A stretch of 64,000 nucleotides of DNA from Catajapyx aquilonaris (lineage: Eukaryota): the NCBI GenBank assembly GCA_000934665.2, contig KZ538074.1:62001-126000 (forward strand), given 5' to 3'. A program made the position numbers and the translations under genes. Positions 4,380-31,700 of this stretch are shown here, piece after piece (positions within the stretch are counted from its first letter, which is position 1; every line of letters starts with the position of its first letter). The notes beneath the pieces are model-generated. The model was not told the origin of the DNA and ran no database searches. It was given only the letters and a program-made list of their open reading frames with translations.

Positions 4380-4737
4380 CAGACTGGCTCAGAGGAGGAG
4401 CATTGTACTGCGATAGGGAGTGTCAGGGGGTACGACCGCCCGTGCTGCGACTGCTACCGCAATTTCCTCTGAACAGGGAGTCGGAACTGCGTCATCGGTG
4501 CGAACCACGGTCGTGGTGCGAACGTTTTGTTTTATTTGCATCCCGCAAAAATTATTTCTGCACTGCTCCCAGGTAAGTAATCCCACCTCCCTTTTCTCGT
4601 CCTTGGCCCCTGCTGAAGCCTTGTTACGTCACTTATAATGTTGTTTCGCTTGTTAAGCAGGCTAAGAAACAGCCAACTGAAAACCACTCAGGAAGAGCCC
4701 TCCTAAGAAGGTGGAGATCACGACACTAAACAGAAAT
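4380..4737 (+). other. WBP4: Putative ATG-free 5' leader exons (..4572 and 4661-4737) ending in the AT of the WBP4 start codon
   Basis: CAG|gtaagt at 4572/4573, an 88-nt intron ending ttaagcag|, and the second exon ending cagaaAT|gtgagt at 4737/4738. Neither exon contains an ATG. The 5' boundary of the first exon is uncertain. Confidence 0.65.
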
Positions 4738-5059
4738 GTGAGTATAATTTGGTTGTGGGAGAGATGTAGCTATATTAAGGGGCAGGTGCCTGTGGTTTTT
4801 TGTTAGCCAAGTGTCACTGGTATGGCTTGTAGCTCCTGTTACGACCTCAACTTAAGTCGTCTGCCACTGGAGTATCATTGCTGTACTTAACCCAGATATG
4901 CCCAGCTTCCCCTATAGGCAACACCTGCACAGTTGTTACATTTTAATTTTTTTACTGTACTTCTGCTGCTAAAGAGCTAGCAGTAGGCATGGGTGCTTCA
5001 GTAGAGTCACAGCTAATGATGCAAGTGCAAACCTGTTGAGTATTGTTTCAGCTTGTTAA

Positions 5060-5315
5060 CCCTGGAACCGTGGCATGGGGTCTTTTAGGACCCCATCCAT
5101 ATTTTAATTTTTATTAATTTTTATATAATACTATTCAATGTATTGACTATATGCAATCATTCTTTGAACAATGCCTAAAATGATCGCTAATTCAAAATAA
5201 ACATGCACATACTGTTATATATGTTTAAAAAATGGTAAAAGTTCATTGTAATTATCATTTTAATGCATTTTAATTCCTTGGGGGTCCTAAAAGACCCCAT
5301 GCCACGGACCAAGGG
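5060..5315. mobile_element. piggyBac-type MITE nested at a TTAA
   Basis: TTAA|CCCTGGAACCGTGGCATGGGGTC...GACCCCATGCCACGGACCAAGGG|TAA; absent from the host copy at ~18340. Confidence 0.8.
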
Positions 5316-5501
5316 TAAGATACAGTTGTACATGTGTTTGAATTTTAACTCAGGGAAAAATGGCTGCACCTTCATGTTCCGAATATGATTAGTAATTAAT
5401 TCTTGAATGTTGATTAGTGTTATGAGTAATTTATTGTTTGTAATACTTTGAGAACTTATCAATGATGAAGTCAATGGGGAAATATAGGCATATTTTTTTA
5501 C

Positions 5502-5778
5502 CAGCCCCCTGACACAAATATGATACGGTAGTTTAATATAAAAGGCTCTGCTAGGCGGCTACTGATGCCAGCCACCCGAATCATAGTCTGTGAACGCTCT
5601 TCGAGGAAAGAACGGTTTGGGCTGGTTCCGAATTCGGCGCTGGCGTGCCCCCACAGCTGGCTAGTGGGGGGACTAGCCGTCTGTGGGGGGTGCGCCAGCG
5701 CCAAATTCCCCACCTGGCAGATCCTTTTATATTAAACAACCTTCAACACAGGGCTAGGCTGGATGTGTCAGGGGGCTG
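5502..5778. mobile_element. MITE with 9-bp TSD (Mutator-like by TSD length)
   Basis: 15-bp TIR CAGCCCCCTGACACA; TSD tttttttac at 5493-5501 and 5779-5787; empty site at ~18507. Confidence 0.75.
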
Positions 5779-6789
5779 TTTTTTTACTTTCCTTGTCTGA
5801 CAGTACTGTTGAAATCTGGTGTCCCCTCTGGGGAACGCAAGAGGCAAATGCACCCACATTTGGACAAGTAAAATATGTGTGTGTATTTTGTCCGTTTTGT
5901 TGAACTGTATTGTAATGAATTCATATAATTAAAAGGAGATTACATGGCTAAGGGTGGCACCAATCCTTGGTTGTTGTTGATTGTTACTCAATTACAACCC
6001 CTTCTTTACTCGACCTGTTTTCCGTGGTAATGCAATGGACAACAATCAATCATTGGTGATATTTTGAAACTATGGTTATTGGTGAATATCATTGTTGCCA
6101 TCGTAATGTCATCAGCTATTATAGCCATACTAGGCTACATTTTCCTAGCATCCCGTAATAGGGAAGGCCATTTTCTCGCAAACAAGCATTCAGAAAAATG
6201 TTTTATCTCCATTTTTGTTGTTTTGGGAACTAATATGAACTAATAGAAACAAAAAAAGTTCAAAAATTCAACAAAAAATTTCCCCGGCACATCTGGGTTA
6301 ATAGTGGCCCTACAGCAGTCTTATTTCTTGAAGCTTGCTAAAATGTATACAATGCTGGCTGTAGTTATACAGATAAACCACTTGATTTCTAAACCCAATG
6401 TTAACTTGGGTTGAATGTTTTCATGAGTTGTAGACAATTCTTTGTCAGAGTCTACATGAAATACTGTATGATGAAAACCAAAGCCTTTTGTGTTACAAGC
6501 ATTTAATCTTTTACATACCTGTTTACTTGAATACCACTTCTGGAAGATTTTATCATTAATGTTTCATGGGAACAATGTTGGACCTACTGAAAGTGAATTT
6601 TTGTTATGAAATTATATATTCTCCCTGGCAGTGATGCTCCAATGAGGATAGCAATGGAAGTGACTAGCTCAGAGCTGATCTATTGCTTTCTGAGATAAAT
6701 AATGATGTTAATACAACATTTGTGGTGGTGGCAAACAACAAACTACCCTCAAACCAACAAATACTTTTCTGCCAGTGTTTCCAATGGAT

Positions 6790-8291
6790 AAGGTGTGTTC
6801 AAATGAACATAAAGTGAGGCAATATCTCTGGAGCTATTTGTCTCAGCTGAGTTCTAGTGGTATCTCTGGGTAGGCACTTGCATGGCTAATTTTCATGCAG
6901 AGTAGTTAGTAGTCAGTATGCGTGGAGTGGACAGGGGAGCATTTTATGCAAGTCAACCAGGGCTATGCATTTGTCCAAACAGGCACAACTCGTCATCATC
7001 CTTTTTCTTCATCAAGGAAGGAACTGCACCAGTGGACATTGTCCATTGGATGCTAAAGGCGGGTGGGAAAGCCTGCTTCAAGCACAACACCTTGGTGGAC
7101 AGATTGGTACAGAAAACCACTAAGGAAATGTTATCTCGATAGGTCCTTCATTCACTAACGTCTGGACAGAAATTCCCTACACCTTTGAAGAGAGTCTTGT
7201 GGTTGAAACAGACATTCCCATGCATCTTCTGCATCCAATGGACGATGTCCACTGATTCAGTTCCTTTCTTGATGAGGGAAAAGGATGATGGTGAGCCTTG
7301 CATGTTTGGATGAATCCATAGCCCTAGGAGACTTGCATAAAATGCTCTCTGGCCCACTACATGCATACTGACTACTAACTACTCTGCATGAAGGGGAGGC
7401 GGAGTGGTGCTGCTGTAACGTATGTGCCCACGAATGTAAGAGTCCTGGGTTCCCTTCCTGGACATAATACCGACAGCCTAAACACTACCTCCCAAAATAC
7501 CGACACTCCACTATACGACAAAAATCATACTTGGATGTTCGACTCACTTGTTCAATCAGGCCCAGGTTTAAAACAGGCTGGGCTGTCATATCAGGAGACC
7601 CTGCACTTTACCTACTTTCCTAGGCTTGTATCTTCTGAAGGATAGACGTGTATCCACTGAAGATATGTCTGTATCCGCAAGGAAGGAAGGTTAGGTTTAT
7701 TGGTTATGTTCGTACAGCGTGCCCCTACGCCTGCCAAATACGGTCTCCTACCTCCCTTCTTCGAGGTATTATTTACAATATGCATCTACAGTATAGATAT
7801 GGTACCTGTATGTAGCCTGTATGTGGCAGTGTCGATGTTATGGTTTTAGGTATTATGTCCCAGATACCCGGGTTTGATCCCAAGCTCGGGCATTCCCCTC
7901 TTCATCTCATGCAGAGTTCGGGGTCATCTCAGGCTTCGTCTCGGGTGGGATTCCTTGAGACTTACCACCCGGAGGAGTTCACAAAATGACCATAGCAACA
8001 ACATTGCACTGCATCTTGCACATCCCCTCCCACTCATCCCCCCTCGCTCGCGGTACCTGGGCATTATGGAAAAGGACCAACAAAGCTTGTACACTTAAAA
8101 AGCAAAGAAAGGTACCATGCCAAATGTCCATCCAATGGGCGGTGCACTAACCCATTATTAATAATATTATTATTAACTACTCCGCATTAAAATTAGCCAT
8201 GCAAGTGCCTACTCAGAGATACCACAAGCACTCAGCTGAGACAAATAGCTCCTGAGATATTGCCTCATTTATGCTCATTTTAACACACCTT
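6790..8291. mobile_element. Fold-back mariner derivative (two inverted 5' ends with decayed transposase N-terminus)
   Basis: Arms 6790-7090 and 7190-7392 plus 8174-8291 are reverse complements. ORFs 6918-7142(+) and 7148-7366(-) are homologous (FFIKEGTAPVDIVHWM) and resemble a mariner HTH. Confidence 0.7.
7393..8173 (+). mobile_element. SINE family 2 with a nested Mutator-type MITE (7453-7866)
   Basis: tRNA-like head, (att)n tail and ~17-bp TSD taactactc(t/c)gcat(g/t)aa. The body matches 61940-62270. The insert has a near-9-bp TSD cctgggttc/cccgggttt. Confidence 0.75.
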
Positions 8292-8631
8292 CTAGTTCAA
8301 CTGAGTGTCATTTTCACATGGTAATTTAACCTTTTGTGTATCCATGAGAATATCAACATGGTTCACCTGCATTTTGTTCCTGCATCATGAACATGTTCTG
8401 GAATGGCCTGGTTTTTACTTTTGTTTATTGTAAAGGCTGGCGACTCAACATTTCATGCAGTAAAGGGAAATGTATGCTAATACCAAAATACAGTGTGTTC
8501 CAAGTGAATTGTCCATGATTGTTAGCAAATTTTGTATGCATGAAACTGCTTAGGCTATTGTTCTACAGTTACTTTTGAACAGTTACTTCTAGTAGTTGTC
8601 AAGAGTACATCTGGCAGTGTTGCATTGAATA

Positions 8632-8883
8632 CAGGGTGATTCCAAGTTCGTGGGGCCTTTTAGTTATAGGAAATTTCGCTCAAAGCTGTTATTTTTGTAG
8701 CTGCTTGTGCCCCAATCCAGGTGCCCTATTTGATAAAAACTGCTCTATTCGACCACCTGATAAGTACCATTGAGGCACCTGGATCGGGGCACAACAAGAA
8801 CAAAAAAAAACCTACTACTACTACTACTACTTCAAGCGCTATCAGTGATAACTAAAAACTACCAACGAACTTGGAATACCCTG
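8632..8883. mobile_element. Tc1/mariner-type MITE
   Basis: TA|CAGGGTGATTCCAAGTTCGT...ACGAACTTGGAATACCCTG|TA; a related fragment lies at ~31160-31316. Confidence 0.75.
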
Positions 8884-10784
8884 TATAAGCATTCATTCAG
8901 ACCTCGTAATATGCTGAATTTCTACTCTTAAGAAAATGCAGATGACCTTTTTTGACCCAGGGGCATTTGAGGGCAAGGGTTGAACTCATTAGCCTTATAT
9001 GCATAAGTTTAAAAGGACACATCCATTTGACTGAATATTAGCAGCTAATATTTTTGATAACCTTGAGAAGTACAGGTTCCTAAGTAACTGCATAAAAACT
9101 AGCATCTTGGTTTTAAGAAATCACTAACCACTATGGATGACTAAGTTGGAACACACTGTGTAATGGAAATACGGGCAGTCCTTATGCTACGATCATGTGC
9201 TGTGGCACTTGACATAATAATGACCTCGCCCTTTTCATAAAGAACATGTCCTGGAATTAAATTAATGTCATCAAGTAATGATTTTTCACGAAGATTGTTG
9301 CTACTAATTATCTTAACACGAGCTCGGCATGTAACATGCTCTGCGAGTGGTGAAGAAAAAACTGCTTTATTTTTGTACCTATGAAAGTAAGGTTTCTGTC
9401 ACAAAGTAAAATTCTTTATGCGCTTGTGCTGAGCATGAAGTTTTTTCCAAGTATGGAATTGTAAATAAGCATACCCTTATTAAACTTTTTAGTGATGATT
9501 TGAAAAAACAAAACAAAAACAAGGCACATCTTTTGTCACTTATTCTTATAGCCCCTGTCTTCCCTTTTTGGCAAGCAAGTTTCTTGTGGACCATAACAGA
9601 CATCTAGTCTGATTTTCACTTTGTCTACATCATTAAACTCTCACTAATTATGCAAATGCAGCAAATGTGGCTCTTGATTTTATCAACAAGCACAGCTCTT
9701 CTTTCAAGGATTTATACTGACTGCAATAATATTAGACTGTTCCCACCCAATTTACACTTCAGCTCTGCACTTGCAAGCAGTGACTTGTATGCACACAATT
9801 TCTGTTTAACACATATAGAGGATAGATGCCATTTTATACTTAGAAATTTTGGGCAGGGGTCAGAAATAAAACCAGCCTGGGCATGGGAAAAAATTGCATT
9901 CATTTCCATGTCTCAGGTTGATCTAGTATATATGGCTAAAGTAGTTTGGGTCACAGATGATTAAATTTTATCTTGCCATGGGCTGGGGAGCAGACATTCT
10001 AATGGACACATTAGGAGTAGGATCACCTCAGCATTTTACAATTTCATTCTACTTGATCGGGTGTTTATGCAGTCCACACAATAGCAATGTCGGGTGGTGA
10101 CCTCTGACCGAGTATGTCTTATGACGGGGAAATCTTGAGGCATTCTGCCAGAGGATAAGAAAAAATATACTATCAGTGCCTGGTTGCTAAGCAGGTATTT
10201 TTTCTTTCTCCCTGCCCCTGCAGACTACAGTTTTCAACAACTACTTTTAAAACTGTGTTGGGTTAATTTTTGGGTGGAAATTGTTGACGAGATTTGAGAG
10301 AAGCCCTTGATGCTGTAGTCGGGGATCAAGAAGATCAACTGTATCTTTTGCTGGATTTTATTTTTATGAGGAGCAAAATGTGTCAGCTTGATTATTATTA
10401 CAGTTCTTTATGGTTAGTTTTTTTTAATGGTAATAACTGCATTATTTTGTGGAGAAACACTTCGAGTTTTGGCAACATAAATTTTTGAACTGCCAATGGA
10501 GCATTTCCAACACCTGGTCTTGTCGGCATTAAAACATATTCTGGGGGGTATTGTATTTAAAAGTCAATTATACCTGGGATATCAGGGAGGAAGGGTGTGG
10601 ATGTTTGTAATCGCTAGTTCAGGACATGGGGCCTGCAATCCAGAAAATGTAGCTTTAGGAGACTGAAAATGGAGCAAAGTTCCATCATAAGCTACTGCCA
10701 GCATTTCTGGATATGGAAAACTGTGCCATTCAACTCCTAGTTTATGAATTTTATTTTAGATTAGTGTGCAGGAGTATATGGTGA

Positions 10785-11128
10785 CCATGATCTTAGAATA
10801 CTCAGGTCTGGTCACTCCCACTTATCACCTGCCGGGGCGTTTTGCATGAGGTGCTCACTTGAGAGCGCCATGAGACCTTTCATATCTCTATTATGTGGCT
10901 ACCTCAACGGGACCGCGCTGAACTTTATAGGTACAAAAGGGAAGTGCTACATTGGGGGACCCAGCATGGTCGCCGGTGGCCATGTTGGGCCTGCATGTAG
11001 CGGCTTCCCTTTTGTGCCTATAAAGTTCAGCGCGGTCCCGTTGAGGTCGCCACATAATAGAGAAATGAAAGGTCTCATGGACCTCTCAAGTGAGCACCTC
11101 ATGCAAAACGCCCCGGCAGGCGATAAGA
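10785..11128. mobile_element. Palindromic MITE, CCATGG-ended family (right end lost)
   Basis: Near-perfect hairpin about 150 bp per arm; homologous to 32664-33330. Confidence 0.8.
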
Positions 11129-11740
11129 TAAGACTGTAGGGGTAGTGTCCGTGGGCTGATTGTGACCATCGAATTTTGTAATTCTCTTAACTTATAGAGA
11201 ACTCTCACTTAGGCAAGTTCTAGAAGTCCCACTGTATTATTTAAAAATTGGCATCCATTACAGTTCTCATGTCATGACATGATCAGAATTATTTGGAAAG
11301 AGAGGAGTAATCATTGCAAACACTTTGCTGGTTTCTAGTAGTAGGAGACTTATTAAAAATTATTGTTACAAGGCAAAATCAACCCTGAGAGAGACAGTAA
11401 TTTAAGACACTTGACATAAAGCTTTGGCACCAGCTATAAGGAAATTGTGTATGTGGGACAACTGGATATTAAATTTTTATGAGAACAGGGCTAAGCTTGA
11501 CTAAGAATTGGGAGTGATTTTTAGCCTCAATGTAGGGGAACTACTCTTCGACTTCCTGCCTGATTTATCTCCAATCTGACCTTGGAATGTGCCATTTGAA
11601 GCACATTTTTGAGTTAAGAGGGTCAAAACCAACAACAGGAAAATTGTGGGAACTACTTTTTTGGGGATTGAAGTGCAGTTGCTATTGACGTGAGGGTTTT
11701 TGAATTGTAAGGGCAATGTTTTAAATCAAATTAAACCATT

Positions 11741-12257
11741 ACCATATTACCTCACATAAAGTGGCATGCCAGTATAAAACGAGGTCGACCAGCATGCCGG
11801 TATAACCCGAGGTAGATTTCCGTAATTTTGATCCTTGCCAAAAATTTTGGAATGCTTCTGGTGTTGCACTAAAATAATGTTGCAATGAAAATGGGCGAGT
11901 GTACAGGCAAGTTCTGTTGCACAGGGCATATAAAAAATGTAGAGTGTGTGACTAATCCCATTATTATCAGACTGCTTTGACAGGGGAAACCCCTGCTCCA
12001 ACATAGGCCCTACTGTTTAAATAGAGATTATTGCCAGACACTGCTATTGAAAACAATATATGGTGCAGGTACCGTATTCGGAAAATGTGCGTTTTCGATA
12101 GCCTTTACGTGAATTTAGATTATCAGGCAAATGTCAAGTTCGGAAAGGATAATGTAACTTATGCGAAAACCTCTCCTTATACCGGCATGCCAGTATAGCC
12201 TAAAAACTGGTCGACCTTGGCTACACCGGCATGCCACTTTATGTGAGGTAGTATGGT
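11741..12257. mobile_element. MITE
   Basis: ~35-bp TIR ACCATATTACCTCACATAAAGTGGCATGCC, with internal repeats of ggcatgccagtata. Confidence 0.7.
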
Positions 12258-13130
12258 ATCATTAAAACTGAAACATGATTTTTGATGGCTCTGTGCATTT
12301 TCTTCTGGGTAGTAAATGCAGTACTATTGATCTTTTGAAAGTAAGCACCTTCAGGATTACTGAGGATAAGACAAAGAAAGGGAGGGTAATTAATGCAGTC
12401 AGTCTGGCAACAGGTTAATGGTTTTGGTCATAAGTCAAGGCTGCCTCCATTAGGGTGGGTCATATTTCATGCCATTGTTGCTGTGTACTCTGATAAAAGT
12501 GTTTTAATGCAAATGTGTAAATGGAAAAGAGACTTCAGGGCAACAATATTGATCCTTTTTAGAGGCAAAATTCCCCCTGCAAAATTTTGTGAGGAAATTA
12601 ATAGATAAAACTCAAATTTATTGTGTTACATGTATTCTGAATTTGAGGTTTACGAAGTGGATATGGACAGGTGTCTAAATTCTTTCTGCTTTGATGTCCC
12701 TATTGAGAAGGACTGCCTGAATTATTTTGTGAAGTTACTCACTTGCAGAAGTTAATACTTCCACACTTAAATTGCAAGTGGATAACTAACACCAATGCAT
12801 TGAATAGCTGATGCATTTGTGAGTTGCCAGCTTGTAGCCTTTCGTCATTAAGTATGTCGTGCCTTATACCTAAGGCTAGTGTATTTGACTGCATTACTGC
12901 TTAACAGGTGTTTGGATGCATAATTAATATGAAATGAATTGATATGCTTTTACTCTCCATTAATTTAAGATAGATAAATTTGAGGCTTCTTGCATCAATC
13001 TTTCCATATTTATAGTCACCAAGCAATTTTTTTAGAAACTAAGCATGATGTCTTTATATGTTGCACAGTATTTCTAAGGCTCGACATACTTGATTGACCC
13101 ACCACCTATTGTTTCCTGACCAGATTGGTT

Positions 13131-13988
13131 ATGTCAGAATCGGAGACTCGCTCACTGGCTGCCCGTCAACGGTGGCACCGCCTGTCCAAGGCACTGTTGG
13201 GCCAGAAGAACCGTCCTGTATCTGATCCTGACCCACGCCGTTTTACCTCATATGGCCTATTTCTCTGCCAACCTTGTCTCGGGAGGAGACAGGACAACCC
13301 CTACTGGCACCTCTACACCTCCCCTGAACCAGAGCTGTCCCGTTTCCGACTGTGCATCCGACACGCACCCTGCCGGTTTGATGCTGCAGAGCTGTCTGGA
13401 TTCGACAACACCGGCAACGTGCAAATATGGCCATCCGAAGAAGTCCTAGCATACTATTGTGCCACAAATCCAGGCCTTTTCAAACAAAAGTCGGTGCTAG
13501 AACTTGGGGGTGGTATGACATGTTTGGCAGGGTTGACAGTGGCGTTATGTGCTGAGCCACGCCTGGTGACTCTGACTGATGGCAATCATCGCTCTGTTGA
13601 AAATGTGCAGGAGATATTAACGGATAATACTTTTGGTTGCGACATTGAGACATTTGTTTTGGACTGGTCCGGCGAAAGAATTTCTGACCAATATGACGTG
13701 ATAATAAGTGCCGACTGCCTGTTTTTTGAGCGAGGGCGCTCCAATCTGCTCAAGTGTCTATATGAAAGGCTCAAGTGGGATGGGATGGCAATTGTTGTAG
13801 CACCACGACGTAACAAGTCATTTCAAGGTTTTGTTACAAGTGCAATGAAGTTGTTTGAGGGTTGTGAATGGTCAGGGAGATACAGTGAGAGGGTGTGGAA
13901 TCTACATGAGCAGCTCAAGGGGAACCTCAACTATAAGGAAGATGAGCATTACCCTTGGATGCTCACACTTACTAAGAAGCGCATGTGA
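13131..13988 (+). CDS. CAMKMT: Calmodulin-lysine N-methyltransferase (intronless CDS, 285 aa)
   Basis: N-terminal ARQRWHRLSKAL, RRFTSYGLF, GFDNTGNVQIWPSEEVLAYY, SAM motif VLELGGGMTCLAGL, LTDGN, YDVIISADCLFF and C-terminal YKEDEHYP. The first ATG is at 13131 (the ORF track starts at a TTG). A splice acceptor ctgaccag| lies at 13123. Confidence 0.93.
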   Translation: MSESETRSLAARQRWHRLSKALLGQKNRPVSDPDPRRFTSYGLFLCQPCLGRRQDNPYWHLYTSPEPELSRFRLCIRHAPCRFDAAELSGFDNTGNVQIWPSEEVLAYYCATNPGLFKQKSVLELGGGMTCLAGLTVALCAEPRLVTLTDGNHRSVENVQEILTDNTFGCDIETFVLDWSGERISDQYDVIISADCLFFERGRSNLLKCLYERLKWDGMAIVVAPRRNKSFQGFVTSAMKLFEGCEWSGRYSERVWNLHEQLKGNLNYKEDEHYPWMLTLTKKRM

Positions 13989-14368
13989 AATTTTTGTTGA
14001 TATCCTGTTAAGTGAACTGAAATGTTCTGTTTTGCACCATAACTTGGATGAAAAGTACCAGTACTAGGTAATCTAATGTGTATATCAGTTATTCAGTATT
14101 AAACTTAGCACAAATCTAGTTGACCTTTTCATTCAAAAGTAACGCAAGCAGACATTTTGATTCACATGTGTTCCTGTGGGTGCCTAATGGTGCAATGCAA
14201 AGGTTTAATTTCCAGTATGAAGTAAAAATGTATCTGCTTGAGAAGAATATTGTGAAGATATTTTCAAAGCTAATTAGTCTTTTAAGCTGTGAGGGAATGT
14301 TTAGAGTATAGAAAAGACACCCCATATGAAGTAACGAGCCCACTCTCTTAGTATAACTCTCACATTAA

Positions 14369-15184
14369 GGGGCACTACAGTCAAAATAAAGGGTTTTGTA
14401 AAAAATCGCCAAAAAAAAACCCATTAGAGACGAGAAGTTGGGACTTCATTTTCATGAATGTACATATAGCGCCTATAATCGAATCATGTTGACTCATGTG
14501 TCGAAGGGCCTCCAGGGCCGCGTGACGTCACGCCACTGTAACCACGATTTAGGGCGCTGGGGTGAACCTACAACCGTCAGATTGGACCTCAGGCTTCCTT
14601 GAGCATGTAGTTTTCGTTTGACCCATAATTATAATTTTTGAAATCGTTTTAGTATTTTTTTGAAGATAACTACCAAATTAAGCACTTTTGAGAAAACATT
14701 TAATGAAAGTAAAAATAGAAGTAGTTCGAGCAGGCTAATTCTTTTGGTCCGAACGATAGTGCCATGTTTGAGGATAAATATGGTGAAGTGGGAAGTCCGT
14801 AGCTACATTTTTGTGGCCTGGGCGATGGTGACAGTGTCCAAATCTGGCAAACTGAGAAAGTTAAAAGCAGGGTAACGTAACAGAGCAATAATGCGATTCA
14901 AAAAATACATTAGTGTGACACAGACGCGCTGTGGCCAGCAGGACTAGCGTAGTGCCTCTGCGTCCGCGCGAGAGCAGCATCTGATGGCGCTCATGCCAGA
15001 GGATAGGTGGGGAGAGGAGGGGGCCTTGCCAGGCAAGGTTGCCAGGCGTCCGCTCCCAACTCGCCAATTTGTTTAATTTCGGGACGCGGTTTGCCGTGTT
15101 CGACGCAGGAAAAGACGCTTGATTTTTTTCAAAAAAAAACCCCAAAAAAACGAGGTTTTGAAGGTCAATGACTGTAGTGCTCCC
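14369..15184. mobile_element. Kolobok-type non-autonomous element
   Basis: TTAA|GGGGCACTACAGTCA...TGACTGTAGTGCTCCC|TTAA, purine-start termini. Confidence 0.7.
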
Positions 15185-20844: not shown

Positions 20845-21188
20845 CAGGGTGTATCAGAGTCACGGGTCAAGCGAGTGCGAGGGGGTGGGGAAAAATCGTA
20901 GGTGGCGACAACCCCGGTCGGTTTTATAAAGCAATTAGAAATACGGCAGTAATCAATTTATTTATTACGGCCGTATGGCGTGATGTCACGTCCTATCTGT
21001 TTAAATCGAGTCGGGCGGGCTGGCAAGAGTCAAGGTAAGATTGCAGTGGTTGAACGGGTTTTTAGCCTTGCGGGTTGCACTGAAAAAGGCTACGCCGGCA
21101 GGGTACTGAACACACTACAGTAGTGTGTTCAGTACCCTGCCGGCGTAGCCTTTTTCAGTCGCTTGACCCGTGACTCTGATACACCCTG
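20845..21188. mobile_element. Tc1/mariner-type MITE with an internal perfect hairpin
   Basis: TA|CAGGGTGTATCAGAGTCACGGGTCAAGCGA...|TA; 39-bp perfect stem at 21079-21159. Confidence 0.85.
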
Positions 21189-21404
21189 TATTGTTCAGAT
21201 TGCTTGTGCAGATAACATTGCAGCACAACTTGCTGGTAGCATACCAAGTTATGAATCCGTCCAAATGTGACCAAAGGGCAACGATTCAGTTCAAGTGAAA
21301 GTGCTGGTATCATTTTGCTGCGTGACAATTCCCGTCCAGTTATTGTCTGGGTAGTGCAGTACGAACTGAATGCCATGTGATGTGATGATAAGTTATATCC
21401 TGGA

Positions 21405-21585
21405 TGCCTTTGGACAGTTAAAGATGGCTTTTCAAGGCCGTATGTTCACATTTGATGACAAAGTGCATGAGGCTGTGGTAGTTTATTTAGGCAACAGCTC
21501 AAGGAAATATTGTAAATGGGATATGCACATACAGAGACTTGTGCATTAGTGGTAATTCTGTCTAATTCCTGTGGTGATTTTTAAA
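21405..21585 (+). pseudogene. Decayed mariner transposase C-terminus
   Basis: Frameshifted translation FGQLKMA.QGRMFTFDDKVHEAVV...RQQLKE...IQRLVH*W.FCLNSCGD resembles the mariner C-terminal consensus. Confidence 0.55.
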
Positions 21586-23349
21586 TAACTGTTACAATAC
21601 CTTAGTTTGGTTGGGTACATTCTCACACAGGTTGCAGTTGAATTTTCTGAATACTTGTTGCCACCAAGTATTTAGTAATGTTTCAACATCATTGCCACAA
21701 CCGTTACGCAGCATTGTTGGAATACATCAATCAGCTCTGATGGTCATATTGTGCGTCTAGTACCAGATTTCAATAGTTGGTCTCTAAACACTGTATGTTC
21801 ACTAATGCTTGGTCACCATGAATAAGGGAGTGATCAGTGCTTGTTTTCCAAATTTTTCAATTGTAATACCACAAGGTGTTTCAGTATCAATGGTTATGCC
21901 ATTAAAGAATCACTCCCTTTGTTGTGAAGGCCATGCAGATTACTGTTAGGGACCAAAATTATAAACACAGGTGAATCATGTGTTGATTGTTGTCCATCCC
22001 CCTGCCACCAACCCCAATTGTTACGAAATGTTTCCATCGATGCCTATGTCTGCTCAAGAGATGGAACGGGTAACTGTTTTTTTTATTATTTATTGCATAG
22101 ATGAGAGAAATGACTTCCTTGACTGAACTTTGCCCTTGGCTGTGTGGTAAAATGATGATACTGGGTTGAATAAATAAATACATTGTAACAGCTCTGATGG
22201 TTTTTCCCTTCTGCAACTAAAAAATGTTCATTTATGTTTATTATATTAGTACTATTTTTCTGCTAAATAATTGGTTGTAGTTTTTATTGTTGACATTAAA
22301 TTTATGTAAGTAGTGTTGGCCTGTTAAGGAAATAAAATATTATGAAATTAATTTTATAAATTTAGCTCCAAATTAAAAATCAATTTTGTACTTTTGCAGA
22401 GAAAAGATACCTTAGCTTAGACCAACAGTACTTTTATGACTTCCATGTCAACAGTGCGAAAAACAGCCTATTAACCAGGAAAAGAATGCTGATGTCAGCT
22501 CTTGATGTCATGAACAAATGAAAACCTGACTTTACCAAACCTACGCGTACTTATCCATGCGATATTTTCTATATATCATAAAACTTCATGCTTAAATTTT
22601 AGAACAACTTTGCTCAGTAGGTGTAGAATAACAGGAAGGAACACATTTGATTCATTCAGCTGTCTGTAGGTGGTTAAATAAAACTAACAAAACCAGTCAA
22701 CTGGATGCATAACAACTACAGTATTTTCAAAATTGAGCAAGGTGGCTGATGCTTCAGCAATAATTGGCATCAGAAGCAACCACTACACATACAACATATT
22801 CAGCCTTATGACCCATATGCATAAATGCAGAATAGAGATTGGATTGATATAAATGACATACAACTGAATGCCAGTCTATGTGCATAATGCCAGGATTGAG
22901 AATGTCATCCTTGCACAGGGGCCTCAGGATTGAGAATGTTGTTAATATTGGATTGGGAATGATGGGTAATTTCAGGACAAAACACCCCCTTTTTCCTCAG
23001 AATAACACCCTCCATTTTTTGATTGTGATGAAATTTGGCATGCAGGTTCCAAATGTGAAGAGTAAGTAAATCCCCAATTTTCAGCCACCTATGTTCAATA
23101 GGTCATGAGTTATGTCATGGTCAAATCGGAGAAAATCAAAAACATGGACTCAAATATTGCCTCATATCTCAGTGAGTACATGCTCGACTGCGTGTTTCGC
23201 CTGTCCATGGATTTGCAATTGTGTGGGTGATGAATGATTTTTAAAAATAATGCCGGAAACTAGCCAATTTTGGAATATCAAGTTTTGTGACCTTTGCCCA
23301 TGTGCTGAGGTCTAAATGCTTGGGACACACTGGTACCCACCTCTCTGTT

Positions 23350-23443
23350 GTACTATGGGCGCCAAAAGAATTGACCGGAGTTGATGGGTATATAGCGCCA
23401 TATACCCATCAACTCCGGTCAATTCTTTTGGCGCCCATAGTAC
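23350..23443. mobile_element. GTAC-bounded palindromic mini-element, family C
   Basis: Perfect palindrome GTACTATGGGCGCCAAAAGAATTG...; the opposite arm of the host has a single GTAC at 24957-24960. Confidence 0.88.
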
Positions 23444-24218
23444 ACACCCGTATAAGTTTCATTTTAGTAGCACAATGTCTTCTGGGTGAAAAAAATCCAG
23501 ACTACTACCTTCTCATGGAAATCGTCAATGGCGGTAAGGTGGAGATTACACACGAGTCTCCTCCAATCTCAACCTTATTGGTTAGTAGATGGGTTATTTC
23601 CCCTGACAATCCGCTCTTCCTGCTGGACATATGAAGATGAAAGTATTGATGGATTGCAGCAGCTTGTTTTGATTGTGTGAGAACAGTCGCAAAAGAAGAT
23701 ACTGGTGGTGGAAGCAGACGTTGGAATTAATATCTGAAACTGGTAGTCTGGATCGAATGGACAGCCAATACTCTACTTCTTTTCTTCAGAAGATACCCAC
23801 CGACCTGACTTTTTGATGTACCACTGGTACCAGTACTTATGTTGGTTGCAATTTACACCCGATTTTTGCCAGCGGACAGTTCATCATGCTGACTGGCAAT
23901 TACTGAACACTGTGGAACACAGCATGTACAGTCTCAAACACTGACGTTCTGCATACACAAAGCACTAGCACTATCACTTGGTGCTACTGGCCAGCAACTG
24001 AAAAGCAACGACAGCGACACTGACAGGCTTCCTATGCTGCCGAGATACAATGACCTGTTCCTATAAACACAACTGGAGCTGCAACAACATATGAGAAGGC
24101 TCCCGAAGTGTCACCTTTCTTTTGTGTGGTAAGATGGCAATAGAGTAACATTAACATGCACATTGATGATATGGGCTTATTGTGAGACTGCCGCATATTT
24201 ACTACATCTGAAAGCACG

Positions 24219-24522
24219 ACCGAAGCAGTTTGGTGGAGTGGATAAGGTGTTCGACGGCTAATCGGGAGGTCCTGGGTTCGATTCCCAGGGCCGGCAATCC
24301 TAACCGTGGTTTTCTGTAGTTTCCCACGTTCCCCCCAGGAGAATTCCGGGATTGCTTCCTAAATAATAGGCCACAGCCGCTTTCTTCCGTCCCTATCCTA
24401 TCCCAAAAAGCAAAAGTAAAAATGAATGCAGAGTGTTCCAGTCAAAACAAAATTGGGATGAACTTCCCCCCTAAAGAGCAGCCGGCTGATAACGGGGTAT
24501 GAATTATTATTATTATTATTAC
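24219..24522 (+). mobile_element. SINE family 4
   Basis: A box tggtggagtgg, B box ggttcgattcc, (att)n tail; TSD tactacatctgaaagcacg at 24200-24218 and 24523-24541. Confidence 0.85.
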
Positions 24523-25545
24523 TACTACATCTGAAAGCACGGCTTTGAACGACCTGCAGAATGACCATCAAGTGCTACTTCAGCATGAAATCTCCAGATA
24601 CATTATTATTGTTTCACTTTGGGCATTAGGGGCGTATTTTAAACCAATCCCTTCTTTGTTCACTATAATTATGTAGCCCCCATAAAAATGTACTGCGTTG
24701 ACATAAATGCAAACATATGATTGGAAACTGCAGAATTGTAACCCCGGCAACATAATTATGATGGCGTAGTGGGTAGGCGTAATACTCATCCGTCGCAAGA
24801 ACAAAAAACCATCCGCTAACCAATAAGGTTGAGATTGCAGGAGACGTGTGCAATCTCCACCTTACCGCCATTGATGATTTCGATGAGAAGGTAGTAGTCT
24901 GGAATCTTTTTCGCCCAGAAGATATTGTGTTACTAAAATGAAACTTATACTGGTGTGTACAGAAGAGATGTGGTTATCAGTGTGTTTATTCTCATGCATT
25001 TCGACCTCAGCACATGGGCATGGTCAACGATCACAAAACTTGATATCTCGAAAATTGCTATTTTCCCACATTTAAAATGCTTAAATCATGCATCCATCGT
25101 CTCCCCCACACGATTGCGAATCCATGGACATGCGAAACACACGGTCAGCATGTACTCACCGAGATATGAGGCAATATTTGAGTCCATGTTTTTGATTTTC
25201 TTCGATTTTGACCATGGCATAACCCTTGACCTGTTGAACGTAGGTGGCTGAAAATTGGGGATTTACTTACTCTTCACATTTGGAACCTGCATGCCAAATT
25301 TCATCACCATCAAAAAATGGAGGGTGTGTACCTGGAATTACCCTGACAGCAAATTGTGTCTTGAGCAATGGCAACAGATTGAGGTGGTGCACAACTCAAT
25401 CCTGCTCACAACCAGGATTGATGTGAGAATGGGGACCAGGAGAGTGGCAAAGAAACATGTCGGAAGGCAATTTCTGCCTAAACAGACCATATGGTGAACT
25501 TTGGGGGTTATGGTTGTTCTATGAGTGAATTATTGTAATGATTAA

Positions 25546-26683
25546 GGCACGATTTCTCGAACAGTGGTTCAAATGTAAACCCGGTTCAAATCCGGTTTAA
25601 ACCCAGTTCAGAGAAATTTCCATTTCTTGAGGCAAAAATAAACTCCTGATGTGGTTTAAACTCGGTTCACATCTGACGGCCCGATTGCCGGCCGTTATCT
25701 GAAATAAACCGGGTTTGGAATGCCGGGAACAACAATGAAAGATGTCATTTTTTGACTAGTTGCCGACGTTACTCCGCAAAATGAGTTTTTTATGACACTT
25801 CTCGAAGGCCAAAAAATTCCCCCTGTGAACCCTGGATAGTGCACATCTTTGTCTATCTAATGATATATTTGAAACTTAGAAATCGCAACTATGTGTAATC
25901 AGAATTAAGTTAATTGCACACCTCTGTTATCTCGGCCGTTTCTCATCCGAATTACTTCGCGAATGTATCGATGGCAAGCCAGAAATGTGCGTGATAAAAT
26001 TACATCGTGCTCTATTACACTGAAATTTTTAAAAGTATTGTTTTAGTAAGTTTAATAAACAAGTACTCAGCCTGCTTTCTGGCAGGAATAGACGGTGATA
26101 CTTTTAAATACGTTTAAAAATTTTAGTGTAGCACAATGTAATTTTATCACGCACATTTCTGGCTTTCCGTCGGTACATTCTCGAAGTAATTCGGATGAGA
26201 AACGGCTGAGATAATAGAGGTGTGCAATTAACTTAATTATGATTATACACAAATGCCGATTTCCGAGTTTCAAATATATCATTAGAAAGACAAAGATTTG
26301 CACTATACAGGGTCCGCAGGGAAATTTTTTGGCCTCCGAGAAGTGTCAAAAAAAAAATCATTTTGCGGCATAACGTCGGCAACTAGTCAAAAAATGTCAC
26401 TTCTAATGCGATGTCTCTCACTCCACTTTCTAGACTTGCTAACAAGAGTCTGTTTACTAGCCGGTAAAGACTCGCGCTGAAGCTCAGACTGGTTCGGGGA
26501 AATGGGGAGGACAGGAAATGGCAAAGGCGCAATTCTAACCTGAGCTTGTCGTTCGCATAGTAACGGAGGGTTTGTTTACGCTCGAGAAATGCTCACACTC
26601 AGAAGGAGAGTTTAAACTGAATCCAGCGTGTAGACGCAAACCCAGTTCAAACTGGCTTGAACCACTGTTCGAGAAATCGGGCC
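25546..26683. mobile_element. Harbinger-type element with a nested inverted repeat (~25745-26400)
   Basis: TAA|GGCACGATTTCTCGAACAGTGGTTCAA...TTGAACCACTGTTCGAGAAATCGGGCC|TAA; a partial copy starts at 32421. Confidence 0.8.
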
Positions 26684-27290
26684 TAAGTGAATCAACTCAA
26701 TTATTTTGTAGAAAGTGTGTTTGCAAAAGTAATACAATGGGCATCAAGCAGATCAGACAGAGGGCTCAAGAGCTCTATGGTTTTCCTACTTAGCACAATG
26801 TTTGATTTTGAATTCTCCACCTAGCATTCTTTCCAGTGCTGGCCAGTTAGGCCAGACCCTGAATGGCTGCCTGTGTGAATGATTATAACAAACAGTATGT
26901 AGTGGAAAGTATGGGAAGGTTGAATGCTGTGTATGTCACTGATTGAGGAGACCTTTATAACCATATGTTACATCAGAATGGGCAATGGCTGTCAACAATA
27001 TAACTATTAAAGGCTTGTGACAGCAATACTGTTGTAAGGCTGAGTATATTATGGATATGTTACATGTGATTAAATGGTACATCTGTGAGCAGAACCCATG
27101 GAAATATTAGAATATGTCTAGATCAGCATACTTTCATTGCAATTGTTATCTGTAGCCACTATCTTAAGAATGATCAATACCTGCTACTACTTCCTTCTCA
27201 ACATACAGTATTAGGTTCGTGCAGGTTTTTTTTTTTTTGGGGGGGGGGNGGGGGGGAGGGGGAGGCAAAACATTCATTTATCAACGTATT

Positions 27291-27623
27291 TATTTATTTT
27301 ACTTACCCCATTGGGAGACAATGCTCCTTTAGGGGGGTGGAACACTACCATTTTTCCATAACTATTTTCTTAATTTGCTTCGGACACCGTGCAAGGGAGA
27401 AAGGAACATAGGGAAGGGAATGAGGATTTTTGGGGACGAGACATGGGTACATGTGCAATGTCTGAAACTGGGCCATGTGCAGTCTCCCTGGAGGTTAGGT
27501 TGCCAGACGCCTCCAAGGCGCGTGTCCTGACGCAGGCGAAAGGGAACTCCCAGGCGGGGTTTGAACCTGGGACCTTTCGCACAGCAAGCCAAGACGTTAC
27601 TGTCTCGGCCACCACGCCTCCCC
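27291..27623 (-). mobile_element. SINE family 3
   Basis: tRNA-like head at the right end; TSD catttatcaa..tatt; homologous to 43897-44236 and 56071-56401. Confidence 0.85.
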
Positions 27624-28763
27624 CATTTATCAAAATATTGACCATCAATTTAAATAATCCTTTGCCAACAATCATTGGGGCAGCAGGTGAATGAAAGCTT
27701 CCAGGCTTTGACTAAAGGAAGTCACTCACTCATTTCTGACAATCACTGCGGCTGGTGAAGTGCTCTCCAGACAAGCCATGTTACATAGAACAGAACAGGT
27801 TGTAATCTGAAGGGGCAGTGTCTGGCTCAGGGGTTCCCAACGAGGGGTACCCGTACCCCCAGGGGGTGCGAGGTGGCCCTCCTGGGGGTACGGAGCTAAG
27901 TACCCCTGAGTCCAAATCGAGCAATTTTGGACAACACAGCCCATAAGTGGCTTGCGCAAAGGAAAATAGAGCTGGATTATAATCAAAAGAATTACTTAAT
28001 TTTCTTTCACTTCATCATATTCTTGGTCCCAAAATATTGATTATAAGGTAGTTATCACAATTATCACGGATTAGTTAAATGTCAAGGATTCAATAAATCT
28101 GTCATCCTGGTAGGGGGTACGAGAAGGACCTCTGGTTAGTGCACTGGATGCGGCAGCACCTCCCATCCCAGCTACAGCAATGTCTTTTTTTGTCGCTCTC
28201 ACTCTGATTTATAAAGAGAGAGAAAACTGTGGTGAAAATGGGTCTTGTCAGGGTTCATCTCAAAATGAGGGCATAATAGCAACTGATAGAGCAACACTAA
28301 AAAAATAACCCCACTCGACATATTGCATGTGCTTGTAGAGTCACGCTGCCACCACGTAAGAAATGTGGGTGCTAAAATTGCTAAAGTTATTGACCATGCA
28401 AAGTTAAATGCACAAACTTTTGCATAGACTCAATATGATGTGGCCATAGCCCCATCTGCTTTGTGTTGCTACATGGAACATGCAGACACCTTGTGTTCAC
28501 ATTAATCCGCTTAAATAATGAAACATTATGGTTTTTCAGCACAATTGTTCAAGTCATTTGCTTTTGAGGGGCATAATAATATTTTGGAAAGCGCATGAAA
28601 TATTTTGAGACCTGAAACATAATTTGGCAATGTTCTGTTTTCATTTGTGTGTGACATTGGCACTCTTTTCCTGGTTAATGGATAGTAACTTGAAAATAGC
28701 CCACCTGTCACCTACCTCTACTGCAATGGTTAGGCATGTTTTCCATTAATAAATTGTGTGCAG

Positions 28764-31700
28764 GGCTGACTACTGGAAGTCCCAACCAAAGAAGTTCTGC
28801 GAGTTCTGCAAGTGCTGGTTAGCAGACAACAAAGCCAGCGTTGAATTCCATGAGAGAGGGAAAAGGCACAGAGAGTCTGTGGGCAGGCGCATTACAGATA
28901 TCCAGAAGAAGGGCACAGCAGAGGCCAAGAAGAAGAAAAAGATGGATGATGATATTGCAAGGATGAATGAGGCAGCCCTCAGGCAGTACAGGTATGGAGA
29001 ATATCCAATATGTAGCTGGTGATAATAATATGCCATGTTGGCTCACATACAGTATATTGACTGACTCTACTGTTTGGCATGACCATAATTTGTTTTGAAT
29101 TTACTTTGAGGAGCCAAGTTATGTGAGAAGCATTTTGTCAATGCAATAGTGAAGACACTATCTAATACAAATTGGAGTTGTTATCTATTTCTCTCGACAC
29201 AAGGTTTTTGAAAAGTACATTTCACTAAGGACATGGATGTAGTGTGTAGTGCAATTCTGTCCTGCGAGATGGTCATTAGACATTTTTGGGTCGGAAAGCA
29301 ATGCAGGAGTGGCAGGAGTGTTCAGCATAAGCATACCTCATTTAAGGCCATTCCATTAGTGTGAGCCATTAACCTATAAGTATCAGCCCAAGAATTCTGA
29401 TTGGATCACAATAAATCTCGATGTCAGTGATTGAGTGTAATGATAAATTGCATTTAATTTTAAAAGACCCCCATTTATAAGCGACTAACAGGTGACTCGT
29501 TCTTCGCTTGGGGATTGATAAATGAAAGAAGGTAGTTTGTAAAACATGCATTTACTGTATGGTGAGCTAAGTCAGAAGGACTGTAAATGCTACGTGCTCA
29601 TTGGCGAGATGGCTCGCGGTACCCGGACGTTACGGAAAAGGACCACTTGTAAGCTTGTACATCTGAAGCATAATAAAGGAACCATGCCGGATGCCCTTCG
29701 ATGGGTGGTGCACTAACCAAATTATTATTATTATTATTATTATTTTTATTTTTATTATTTTATTATTATTATGATTATGATGATGATGATGATGATGATT
29801 ACAGTAGATTCCCGATAACTTGAAATTCTCGATAAGTCGAAGAAAATCTTGGACTTGGCGGATTCTCCATAAAATGTAATGCAAATTGAATTCCGATAAC
29901 TTGATTTTCTCGATAAGTCGAATATATTTTGTGAACTCTGCAGCACTTTCGCTATTAATTAGTCGAATTCTGTCAACACCAGGGAATTTCCAAATTGAGA
30001 AAGACACTCAAGCCATCTATTTCTTGCCATCCCATATGAAATCCACGGGGAGCAGCTCCTAGCCACCCAGCCTCCACCCCACCACCCAAAATTCCCCCTC
30101 CCTCGAGAGTGGTCACAAATGCCCTAGGCGAGGATTGCTGTGGCTTCACCTGGCACGGGAGGGTGTACTCAAAATGGCTACCTTTTTCTTTACGAAGATT
30201 GCACGCGTCACGAAATCGCAGCATGACGCGGGCAGTGAAAACTGCCTACTAGTCATCTAGCGGTCACTTGCAATCATGTCCCAGTAGCGAGACGCATACT
30301 GTAGGTGTTTAATTTGTGCAGGTGCTGTTTTCCCCACCATACTCGATAAGAATTTTTTTCCTCAGTCCCATGGTGGTTCAAGTTATTGGGATTCGACTGT
30401 ATTATTAAATCCGACAGACGGTTGCGGGATCTAATCAAAGTTCTTGAGGTCATAAAAAGGGAGCATAGTTTTCATTTTTTATTTGCGATGAAAAAGTAGC
30501 CAAACATAAAATTGCTGGGAAGGGAGAACAATGGTTACCAGAACATGGGCAGATTTCACCACCTTGATTTTAACTTAATGAAGTAATTACTATCCTTTTG
30601 GTGTATGTTCCTGGGCTTAACTCAATTTTGACATTTTTGTGGGTTGACCCATTATTACATAACACTGTCCAACTGACTATCAGTTATAACAGACTGAAAA
30701 GGCCGGTACCGGCATTCCATAAGGCCCTGTGTATTTTGTTACTCCTGATATTAACCGATTCATTTTCACCTCACGTCGGCTATAACCGACCATTTCTTGA
30801 CCTCTCGAAAAATTTGCAGCTTTTGATTAAGTTACTCGACTTCCTTTCCCACGGCAGCAGAAGAATTCCCCCAAATATAAAGGATCCATGGCAGAATGAA
30901 AGTATTGAAACAAGGCAGGAGCACGTAAGACCTTCACCAATATATTCTTGATTTATTAAGGATATGGCTAACCCAGTGGTTTCCAACCTTTTACCAACTG
31001 CAACCCCCCAAACATGTTTCCATAAATGTGCGACAACCCCCCCCCCCCTCCCCTGCGTGCGCTTCCTCCCGGCCCCGGCCCCTCCTACAGCTGCCCCCTT
31101 TCCAGAAAACACACTCTGTACGGCTGCAAAAATGGTTCAATTGCAAAAAGGAATCTTGTTGTTGCACCCAATCCAGGTGCCCCATTACTCCCAGGTAGTC
31201 AAATGTAGCAGTGGCTATACAACAGCACCTGGATCAGGGCACAATGAGCTAAAAAAAAAAGAAGCTTTGATGAAATTTCCTATAAGTAAAAGTTCTAATA
31301 TAATTGGAGCACCCTGTATGTCGGTAAAACAATGTATGATTCAGCTTCAATGCAACTTGAAAATATACATTGCTTTAAGCAATGTCCTTATAGAAACAAA
31401 CTGCCTGGACATCCTCTCTGACTCATAAATATGGACTGTCCCATTAACAGAGAAGATCTTCACCTGAACCCAGAGGCAGACATATCTGCAGAGAACTTCG
31501 TGGAAGAGGAGAGAAAGAAGTCACTTCAACGGTACAAGGAGGAGGAGGAGAGGCTAGAGGCAGAGCGGGCACCAAAAAAGAGGAAGTGGATGGAGGCTGT
31601 CTCTGACCATGGGCAGACCTATTACTACAACTCAAAGACTGGAGGTAAGTGCAGTGGATCATACTTCGAACACCCCTAACTTCGAACGTTCCAGAGTTCA

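What the first reader, a model, noticed from the sequence alone, without database searches (positions are those of the whole stretch)
4661..28991. One leader, two unrelated proteins: split AT|G start codon of WBP4 with CAMKMT nested behind a competing acceptor
Seen: the first WBP4 coding exon begins cag|G GCT GAC TAC TGG (28764) and lacks AT. An ATG-free leader exon 24 kb upstream ends cagaaAT|gtgagt (4737). Joining them gives ATG GCT GAC TAC, MADYWKSQPKK, the expected WBP4 N-terminus. Inside that intron, on the same strand, the CAMKMT CDS has an acceptor (ctgaccag|, 13123) 7 nt before its ATG, no obvious promoter of its own, and an ATTAAA at ~14098. Splicing the same donor there gives AT|ATTGGTT ATG, so no false start is created. 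Inference: 3' splice-site or poly(A) choice switches one transcription unit between a calmodulin methyltransferase and a spliceosomal protein, and the WBP4 start codon exists only in one outcome. Established: WBP4/FBP21 is a spliceosome B-complex factor, so autoregulation is conceivable.
Basis: partly seen in the sequence, partly recalled or inferred. Interest (0 to 1): 0.85.

Follow-up and report, generated by a model that had tools for sequence, protein, structure and literature searches.

The report
Shared leader for CAMKMT and WBP4
In this animal genome an intronless calmodulin methyltransferase gene lies upstream of the splicing-factor gene WBP4, probably inside its long first intron, and appears to borrow the same non-coding leader exons, an arrangement already known from loci such as ChAT/VAChT.

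Summary
The donor is cagaaAT|gtgagt with its exon ending at 4737. An acceptor ends at 13123, 7 nt before an intact 285-aa CAMKMT ORF. The first WBP4 coding exon starts at 28764 and lacks only the AT of its ATG.

Contigs of run X5 (same organism, different sample and study; kind not on record) add RNA-like evidence:
- One 289-letter contig covers 4361-4569 plus 80 letters that do not continue in the genome. That equals the 3 ambiguous letters 'cag' plus the 77-nt exon 4661-4737.
- Another contig starts with 30 non-colinear letters and then runs from exactly 13124 into CAMKMT.

So the CAMKMT acceptor is used. A two-exon, 289-nt, ATG-free leader is expressed, and it seems to end at a branch point at 4737. 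The 4737>13124 join was not displayed, because the tables were truncated. The WBP4 exon lay outside the 20-kb stretch, so 4737>28764 rests on sequence logic only.

Verdict: a real feature, partly supported, and a new member of a known kind. Known parallels are ChAT/VAChT and intronic retrocopies that ride on host exons. WBP4 autoregulation is pure speculation.

The parts
4361..4572 (+). Leader exon 1 (minimum extent; transcription start at or upstream of 4361), non-coding, ends cag|gtaagt
   Evidence: X5 contig 9 fits 4361-4569 exactly. The 3 letters 4570-4572 'cag' also fit 4658-4660. The patch is CpG-rich: 4201-4600 has CpG o/e 0.94. X1 DNA contig 4244-4950 has depth 29.6, so it is single copy.
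4573..4660 (+). 88-nt intron between the two leader exons (gt..ag)
   Evidence: Sequence. Contig 9 does not continue colinearly past 4569.
4661..4737 (+). Leader exon 2, 77 nt, ATG-free, ends ...cagaaAT|gtgagt and supplies the AT of the WBP4 start codon
   Evidence: The 80 remaining letters of contig 9 equal 3 + 77 in number, an inference from lengths. The depth sum of bin 4200-4866 leaves room for it.
13124..14120 (+). CAMKMT terminal exon. The acceptor ends at 13123, the CDS is 13131-13988 (285 aa), and ATTAAA lies at 14098-14103. The 3' end is approximate and untested.
   Evidence: X5 contigs fit 13124-13362 (after 30 non-colinear letters) and 13525-13982.
28764..28991 (+). WBP4 first coding exon. 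It begins with the G of the start codon and encodes ADYWK... and the U1-type zinc finger.
   Evidence: In tblastn of 8 homologues, 6 of 8 align from their residue 2 at 28765; the other 2 have longer annotated N-termini.
31451..31644 (+). WBP4 coding exon 2 (linker and first half of the WW domain)
   Evidence: The WW Pfam hit scores 22.9 bits, below the 26.9 cut-off, because the domain is split by the next intron.
34321..34715 (+). WBP4 last coding exon (rest of the WW domain, C-terminus, stop TGA at 34713-34715). AATAAA lies at 35205.
   Evidence: The reading frame closes: 2 + 228 + 194 + 395 = 819 nt = 272 aa plus stop, by my count.

Best explanation
There is one promoter region, in a single-copy CpG-rich patch just upstream of 4361, and it drives a non-coding leader. 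The leader is ATG-free and has two exons: at least 4361-4572, and 4661-4737.

The donor at 4737 has two alternative partners on the same strand:
(a) The acceptor at 13124 opens a terminal exon that holds the whole intronless CAMKMT ORF. This mRNA probably ends at the ATTAAA near 14100.
(b) The acceptor at 28764 lies 24 kb away. The AT at the end of the leader and the G at the start of that exon make the WBP4 start codon, in a good context (G at -3, G at +4, in-frame TAA two codons upstream).

In both mRNAs the first AUG is the correct start. CAMKMT is therefore a nested gene that rides on the WBP4 promoter and leader. The ratio of the two products is set by competition between the proximal acceptor plus poly(A) site and the distal acceptor.

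Shown: the sequence features, use of the CAMKMT acceptor, and expression and splicing of the leader. Inferred: that the letters joined to 13124 are the leader, that WBP4 uses 4737, and the position of the poly(A) site.
For: - Sequence features are all present.
- 4737 ties for the best donor score among 188 AT|GT sites upstream of WBP4.
- The 289-nt leader is ATG-free. Such windows make up 0.56% of this sequence.
- In one search, X5 contig 9 has 289 letters: 209 fit 4361-4569, and the other 80 lie beyond 4569. Their number equals 'cag' + 77 nt, so the contig would end exactly at 4737.
- In one search, X5 contig 11 has 30 non-colinear letters, then fits 13124-13362. Contig 12 fits 13525-13982.
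- The X5 depth of bin 12871-13537 is fully explained by contigs 11 and 12 (2.139 predicted, 2.14 observed).
- DNA run X1 is colinear over 4244-4950 and 12221-14418, so the joined forms are not visible as DNA.
- The other CpG-rich patches in 14400-21200 are high-copy repeats by X1 depth. The patch at 25400-26600 is an element with terminal inverted repeats and a second copy at 32418.
- None of the 149 ORFs of at least 55 aa scanned in 1-25529 has a Pfam hit. The 9 ORFs dropped were 8 overlapping CAMKMT and 1 containing an N.
- WBP4 homologues start M-[AS]-[DE]-YWK, and 6 of 8 align from residue 2 at 28765. Only AT is therefore missing.
Against: - No row for 4737>13124, and no loose-end consensus at 13124, was displayed. 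The tables were truncated by repeat noise (91 joints and 1,320 loose ends not shown).
- The kind of run X5 is not on record. That it is RNA is my inference from its splice-like contigs.
- WBP4 exon 28764 and the region 24200-28763 were outside the laid stretch, so a private WBP4 leader there is not excluded. One candidate is aaAT|GTGGGT at 28364, which scores 6.32.
- The second branch at 4737 could be unspliced RNA. A surplus of 332 depth*nt in bin 4200-4866 fits either reading.
- A 24-kb first intron contrasts with the 2.5-2.7 kb introns of the rest of WBP4.
- No own-species WBP4 or CAMKMT protein was found in the protein collection.
Confidence: 0.55

Rival explanations
1. The leader 4361-4737 belongs to CAMKMT only. 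The AT at 4737 is then coincidence.
For: Only the CAMKMT side has RNA-like support. Other AT|GT donors exist at 22305, 25422, 25986 and 28364. A short first intron would match the 2.5-2.7 kb introns of WBP4.
Against: - Those donors score lower.
- They have short ATG-free runs of 13-69 nt and, except for 25986, low CpG upstream.
- 25422 and 25986 lie at the edge of and inside repeat elements.
- The leader contig seems to end at a graph branch at 4737, so a second continuation exists.
- By rough estimate, a leader ends in AT by chance only about 1 time in 16.
Confidence: 0.2
2. The leader belongs to WBP4 only. CAMKMT is an ordinary nested gene whose 30 upstream letters come from another, unidentified exon.
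For: The 30 letters before 13124 were not displayed. Nested intronic genes with their own 5' exons are common (general knowledge).
Against: No exon-like X5 piece lies between 4738 and 13123. The only exact single-copy piece there, 8504-8753, has no splice signals at its ends. There is no CpG-rich patch between 4600 and 14400. The exact lengths, 80 = 3 + 77 and a 30-letter overlap, fit one shared branch point.
Confidence: 0.08
3. Spliced-leader trans-splicing: a common SL RNA ending in AT is added at 13124 and 28764, and the 4361-4737 transcript is unrelated.
For: A 30-letter non-colinear start at an acceptor 7 nt before the ATG is also what SL-carrying contigs look like in a 31-mer graph (and my inference).
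Against: The rival leaves unexplained a single-copy, cis-spliced, ATG-free leader that ends in AT|gtgagt on the same strand and stops at a branch. No SL ending in AT is known to me (recalled). Nothing here shows that the organism trans-splices.
Confidence: 0.04
4. The leader is a separate non-coding transcript, and neither gene uses it.
For: No join to either gene was directly displayed.
Against: It requires several coincidences at once: the best AT donor, ATG-freeness, the exact contig lengths, and the lack of another promoter-like single-copy region.
Confidence: 0.05

Closest known systems
Cholinergic gene locus (VAChT inside the first intron of ChAT)
   Same: A whole ORF on a single exon lies inside the first intron of a host gene on the same strand. 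Alternative splicing yields mRNAs for two different proteins. The arrangement is conserved in nematode, Drosophila and mammals (PMC3053374, passages read). That some VAChT and ChAT mRNAs share a 5' non-coding exon is recalled, not read here.
   Different: There the two products act in one pathway, and VAChT also has promoters of its own. Here the products have no known link. The host start codon is split by the intron (AT|G), so it exists only in the host-type splice. Conservation in other species could not be tested.
Intronic retrocopies expressed as chimeric transcripts with upstream host exons (e.g. Taf9 in Ak6)
   Same: An intronless copy inside a host intron is spliced to the host's upstream exons and uses the host promoter. 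Thirteen human and 14 mouse cases were reported (PMC4772013, passages read).
   Different: I saw no poly(A) remnant or target-site duplication around 13124-14300 (by eye). A parental multi-exon CAMKMT could not be sought, because no genome is held. This may be the organism's only CAMKMT. It is intact over its full length, with 56 invariant columns among the 10 aligned sequences.
Alternative last exon / intronic polyadenylation isoforms
   Same: A proximal acceptor plus poly(A) site inside an intron competes with the distal acceptor (general knowledge).
   Different: The proximal terminal exon here encodes a complete, unrelated enzyme rather than a truncated host protein.

Membership tests
Calmodulin-lysine N-methyltransferase (CAMKMT; Pfam PF10294) | Methyltransf_16 domain above the curated cut-off | tested here: met
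   55 bits against a cut-off of 21
Calmodulin-lysine N-methyltransferase (CAMKMT; Pfam PF10294) | Full-length likeness to proteins annotated as CAMKMT, with conserved motifs kept | tested here: met
   741 proteins with E<=1e-20 among 1,288 candidates. Among the 120 best listed, identity is 37-46% and the best E-value hit has 43% over 98% of the query. There are 56 invariant columns in a 10-sequence alignment that includes the N-terminal R..W..L motif.
Calmodulin-lysine N-methyltransferase (CAMKMT; Pfam PF10294) | Methylates calmodulin | not testable with these tools
   Needs an enzyme assay
WBP4 / FBP21 | N-terminal U1-type zinc finger | tested here: met
   zf-U1 at 47.5 bits against a cut-off of 22. 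There are 166 homologues with E<=1e-8 among 175 candidates, the best 68% identical.
WBP4 / FBP21 | WW domain | tested here: inconclusive
   The single-exon fragment scores 22.9 bits, below the 26.9 cut-off, because the domain is split by an intron. tblastn aligns both halves at 31587-31643 and from 34311.
WBP4 / FBP21 | Complete ORF with a start codon | tested here: inconclusive
   The exon lacks AT. The supplying exon is inferred, not read in RNA.
Nested gene pair with a shared 5' leader (cholinergic-locus type) | [quoted passage not shown] | tested here: inconclusive
   True only if WBP4 uses the donor at 4737. Geometry and strand fit.
Nested gene pair with a shared 5' leader (cholinergic-locus type) | Both mRNAs carry the same 5' non-coding exon | tested here: inconclusive
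   The CAMKMT acceptor is used with 30 non-colinear letters, and the leader contig ends at 4737 by length arithmetic.
Intronic retrocopy riding on host exons | Poly(A) remnant and target-site duplication at the insert | tested here: not met
   None seen by eye in 12900-14300. An old insertion would have lost them.
Intronic retrocopy riding on host exons | Parental multi-exon copy elsewhere in the genome | not testable with these tools
   No genome is held for this window
Spliced-leader trans-splicing | The donor is a multi-copy small SL RNA gene | tested here: not met
   The leader locus is single copy in DNA run X1 (contig 4244-4950 at depth 29.6, against about 33 elsewhere). It also contains a cis-intron.
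Spliced-leader trans-splicing | The same leader sits on many unrelated mRNAs | not testable with these tools
   It would need the run's contigs themselves

The most novel reading that the evidence does not exclude
One transcription unit toggles between a calmodulin methyltransferase and the B-complex splicing factor WBP4 by choice of 3' splice site. WBP4 becomes translatable only after a correct 24-kb splice creates its AUG. WBP4 protein then feeds back on that choice, so the cell's splicing capacity sets the CAMKMT/WBP4 ratio.
Probability: 0.06. Interest if true: 0.75.

Novelty: new member of a known kind. Interest (0 to 1): 0.45.

Why it matters
If both junctions hold, this is a clean natural case in which two unrelated proteins are made from one promoter and leader. 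The start codon of one of them is assembled only by splicing. That makes it useful in three ways:
- as a test case for gene annotators, which usually miss split start codons and 24-kb first introns;
- for studies of how nested or retroposed genes acquire expression;
- for studying competition between a proximal terminal exon and a distal acceptor.

It does not open a new class. ChAT/VAChT and host-exon-sharing retrocopies already show the principle.

Tried and rejected
- No listed holder is on record as RNA. X5's kind is '?'.
- No whole genome is held. I therefore could not look for a parental CAMKMT, copies of the leader or an SL gene.
- Searching for own-species WBP4 fragments of 41-133 aa gave no candidate.
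- Exact look-up of the CAMKMT protein and of two partial forms expected from the X5 contigs found none in the collection.
- Earlier findings of this scan returned nothing by place or by the two proteins. A words query failed on its word limit and was not repeated.
- In one search, parts of the stretch without X5 cover are no evidence. Examples are 12871-13123, just upstream of the CAMKMT acceptor, and 22209-22875.
- Only one paper holds both WBP4 and CAMKMT, a mouse thalamus study with no bearing here (search listing only).
- A search for 'split start codon' plus 'intron' listed one unrelated preprint.
The donor there is poor (ccAT|gtcggt) and the region is a high-copy repeat.
- The CpG-rich patches at 14400-15200, 17200-18200, 19000-19600 and 20600-21200 are rejected as promoters for the same reason.
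- The patch at 25400-26600 is rejected as a promoter because it is an element with inverted repeats.
- 105 of the 417 ORFs (those starting beyond 48424) were not scanned against Pfam.
Full report
**What is in the sequence.** The window is animal-like DNA. It is 42% G+C, has CpG o/e 0.55 and is rich in repeats.
- An exon 4661-4737 is preceded by ttgttaagcag| and ends cagaaAT|gtgagt.
- An acceptor ctgaccag| ends at 13123, 7 nt before an ATG at 13131. That ATG opens an uninterrupted 285-codon ORF with its stop at 13986-13988.
- ATTAAA lies at 14098.
- An acceptor gtgtgcag| ends at 28763 and is followed by G GCT GAC TAC TGG.

The ORF is a full-length calmodulin-lysine N-methyltransferase.
- Pfam Methyltransf_16 scores 55 bits.
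- 741 homologues have E<=1e-20. The 120 listed are 37-46% identical, and the best is 43% identical over 98% of the query.
- A 10-sequence alignment has 56 invariant columns.

The exon at 28764 encodes the U1-type zinc finger of WBP4. Its best homologue is 68% identical, among 166 hits. Of 8 homologues laid by tblastn, 6 align from their residue 2 at 28765, so only 'M', that is AT, is missing. I completed the WBP4 model as 28764-28991, 31451-31644 and 34321-34715. The frame closes at 272 aa if AT is supplied.

**Is the AT donor more than chance?** Among 188 ATGT sites on the + strand upstream of WBP4, 4737 ties for the best donor score (the PWM is from recalled approximate frequencies). Just upstream lies a further exon end, cag|gtaagt at 4572, and an 88-nt intron. 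The joined leader 4361-4572 + 4661-4737 is 289 nt without a single ATG, where 4.4 are expected. Only 0.56% of 289-nt windows here are ATG-free. Joined to 28764, it gives an ATG with G at -3, G at +4 and an in-frame TAA two codons upstream. Joined to 13124, it creates no new ATG.

**RNA-like evidence.** No run is on record as RNA. Run X5 is the same coded organism, from another sample and study. It has 32 million letters and holds 54% of the sampled words of 12900-14300, which is too much for shallow genomic sequencing. I laid X5 and the DNA run X1 on 4200-24199, the one call allowed. Three X5 contigs matter.
- Contig 9 has 289 letters. Letters 81-289 fit 4361-4569 exactly, and the other 80 lie beyond 4569 and do not continue in the genome. 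I checked the orientation rule on contig 13 and its listed loose end at 18277. The letters 'cag' fit both 4570-4572 and 4658-4660, so 80 = 3 + 77 is exactly exon 4661-4737. The contig would then end precisely at the donor.
- Contig 11 has 269 letters. Letters 31-269 fit 13124-13362, and the first 30 do not fit 13094-13123. The predicted acceptor is therefore used.
- Contig 12 fits 13525-13982.

Contigs of a 31-mer graph overlap by 30 letters at branch nodes. A leader contig stopping at 4737, and a CAMKMT contig starting 30 letters before its acceptor, are what one shared donor with at least two continuations would give. Depth arithmetic agrees. Contigs 11 and 12 alone reproduce bin 12871-13537 (2.139 against 2.14). 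Bin 4200-4866 has room for all 289 letters of contig 9 (3.94 of 4.44). DNA contigs of X1 run colinearly over 4244-4950 and 12221-14418, at single-copy depth of about 30-33.

**What this does not show.** The joint and loose-end tables were cut by repeat noise (91 and 1,320 rows hidden), so I did not read the 30 letters before 13124 or see a 4737>13124 row. The WBP4 exon and 24200-28763 were outside the stretch. The second continuation at 4737 may be WBP4 or merely unspliced RNA; the surplus of 332 depth*nt in the first bin fits either. X5's nature as RNA is inferred from these splice-like contigs. It is also suggested by a contig that ends at 22192, 14-18 nt after two overlapping AATAAA signals, with 5 extra letters.

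**Alternatives for WBP4's AT.** X1 depth there is about 5,800-19,800, against 33 for single copy. The CpG-rich patches at 14400-15200, 19000-19600 and 20600-21200 are high-copy repeats too. The patch at 25400-26600 is an element with inverted repeats and a second copy at 32418. The remaining AT|GT donors (22305, 25422, 28364) score lower and have ATG-free runs of only 35-69 nt and low CpG. The sequence around 28364 is AT-rich with several ATGs. None is excluded by RNA.

Pfam finds nothing in the 149 ORFs scanned in 1-25529. Nine were dropped: 8 overlapping CAMKMT and 1 with an N. Downstream, Pfam finds only WBP4, a Frag1/DRAM gene on the - strand and a sub-threshold KASH match on the - strand. 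No other gene competes for the leader.

**Most likely mechanism.** One promoter and a two-exon ATG-free leader are followed by a choice between two acceptors. The proximal acceptor at 13124, with its poly(A) site, gives CAMKMT mRNA. The distal acceptor at 28764 gives WBP4 mRNA, whose AUG is made by the splice. I put CAMKMT's use of 4737 at about 0.8, WBP4's at about 0.65, and both together at about 0.55.

**Comparison with what is known.** The closest parallel is the cholinergic locus. The whole VAChT ORF lies on one exon inside the first intron of ChAT, and alternative splicing and multiple promoters give both mRNAs, from nematodes to mammals (PMC3053374, passages). The second parallel is retrocopies inside introns that are expressed with upstream host exons. 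Thirteen human and 14 mouse cases are reported, including Taf9 in Ak6 (PMC4772013, passages). Retro-origin is not shown here: I saw no poly(A) remnant, and no genome is held in which to look for a parent copy. WBP4 is indeed described as a B-complex-specific spliceosome protein (PMC10327195, passages), but nothing here bears on autoregulation. The split start codon is a twist, not a new principle.

**Verdict.** This is a new member of a known kind, of moderate interest.

Noticed in passing
window 21259-22192 (+?): X5 contigs fit 21259-21729 and 21732-22192 exactly. Their depth (5.4 and 27.8) matches or exceeds that of the CAMKMT contigs (3.1-5.8), and the region is single copy (X1 depth 38). 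The second contig ends 14-18 nt after two overlapping AATAAA signals (22169, 22173) and carries 5 extra letters. This looks like a polyadenylated RNA without a long ORF or Pfam hit, lying inside the putative WBP4 first intron. It could be a third outcome of the same unit or an independent transcript.
   Followed up: partly
window 4887-6282 and 18167-19026: Two copies of a dispersed repeat, 82-93% identical and about 13 kb apart on the same strand. One starts 150 nt after the leader donor. DNA-run depth shows it is high copy.
   Followed up: partly
window 25543-26690; also 32418-32488: An element with terminal and internal inverted repeats, CpG-rich, with a 96% identical end copy inside a WBP4 intron. 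Similar palindromic elements lie at 10783-11127, 19082-19650 and 32664-33330.
   Followed up: no
window 4323: A second AT|GTGAGA donor lies 38 nt upstream of the first base covered by the leader contig. It is preceded by a 289-nt ATG-free, CpG-rich run. It could be an alternative leader end if transcription starts further upstream.
   Followed up: no
window 42282-45306 (-): Two exons of a Frag1/DRAM/Sfk1 family gene lie on the minus strand (E 2e-19 and 1e-7). A weak, sub-threshold KASH match lies at 38071-38460 (-).
   Followed up: no
window 8504-8753 and 20101-20522: Exact single-copy X5 contigs without splice signals at their ends lie inside the putative intron. They may be pre-mRNA or stray transcripts. 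The strand is unknown.
   Followed up: no
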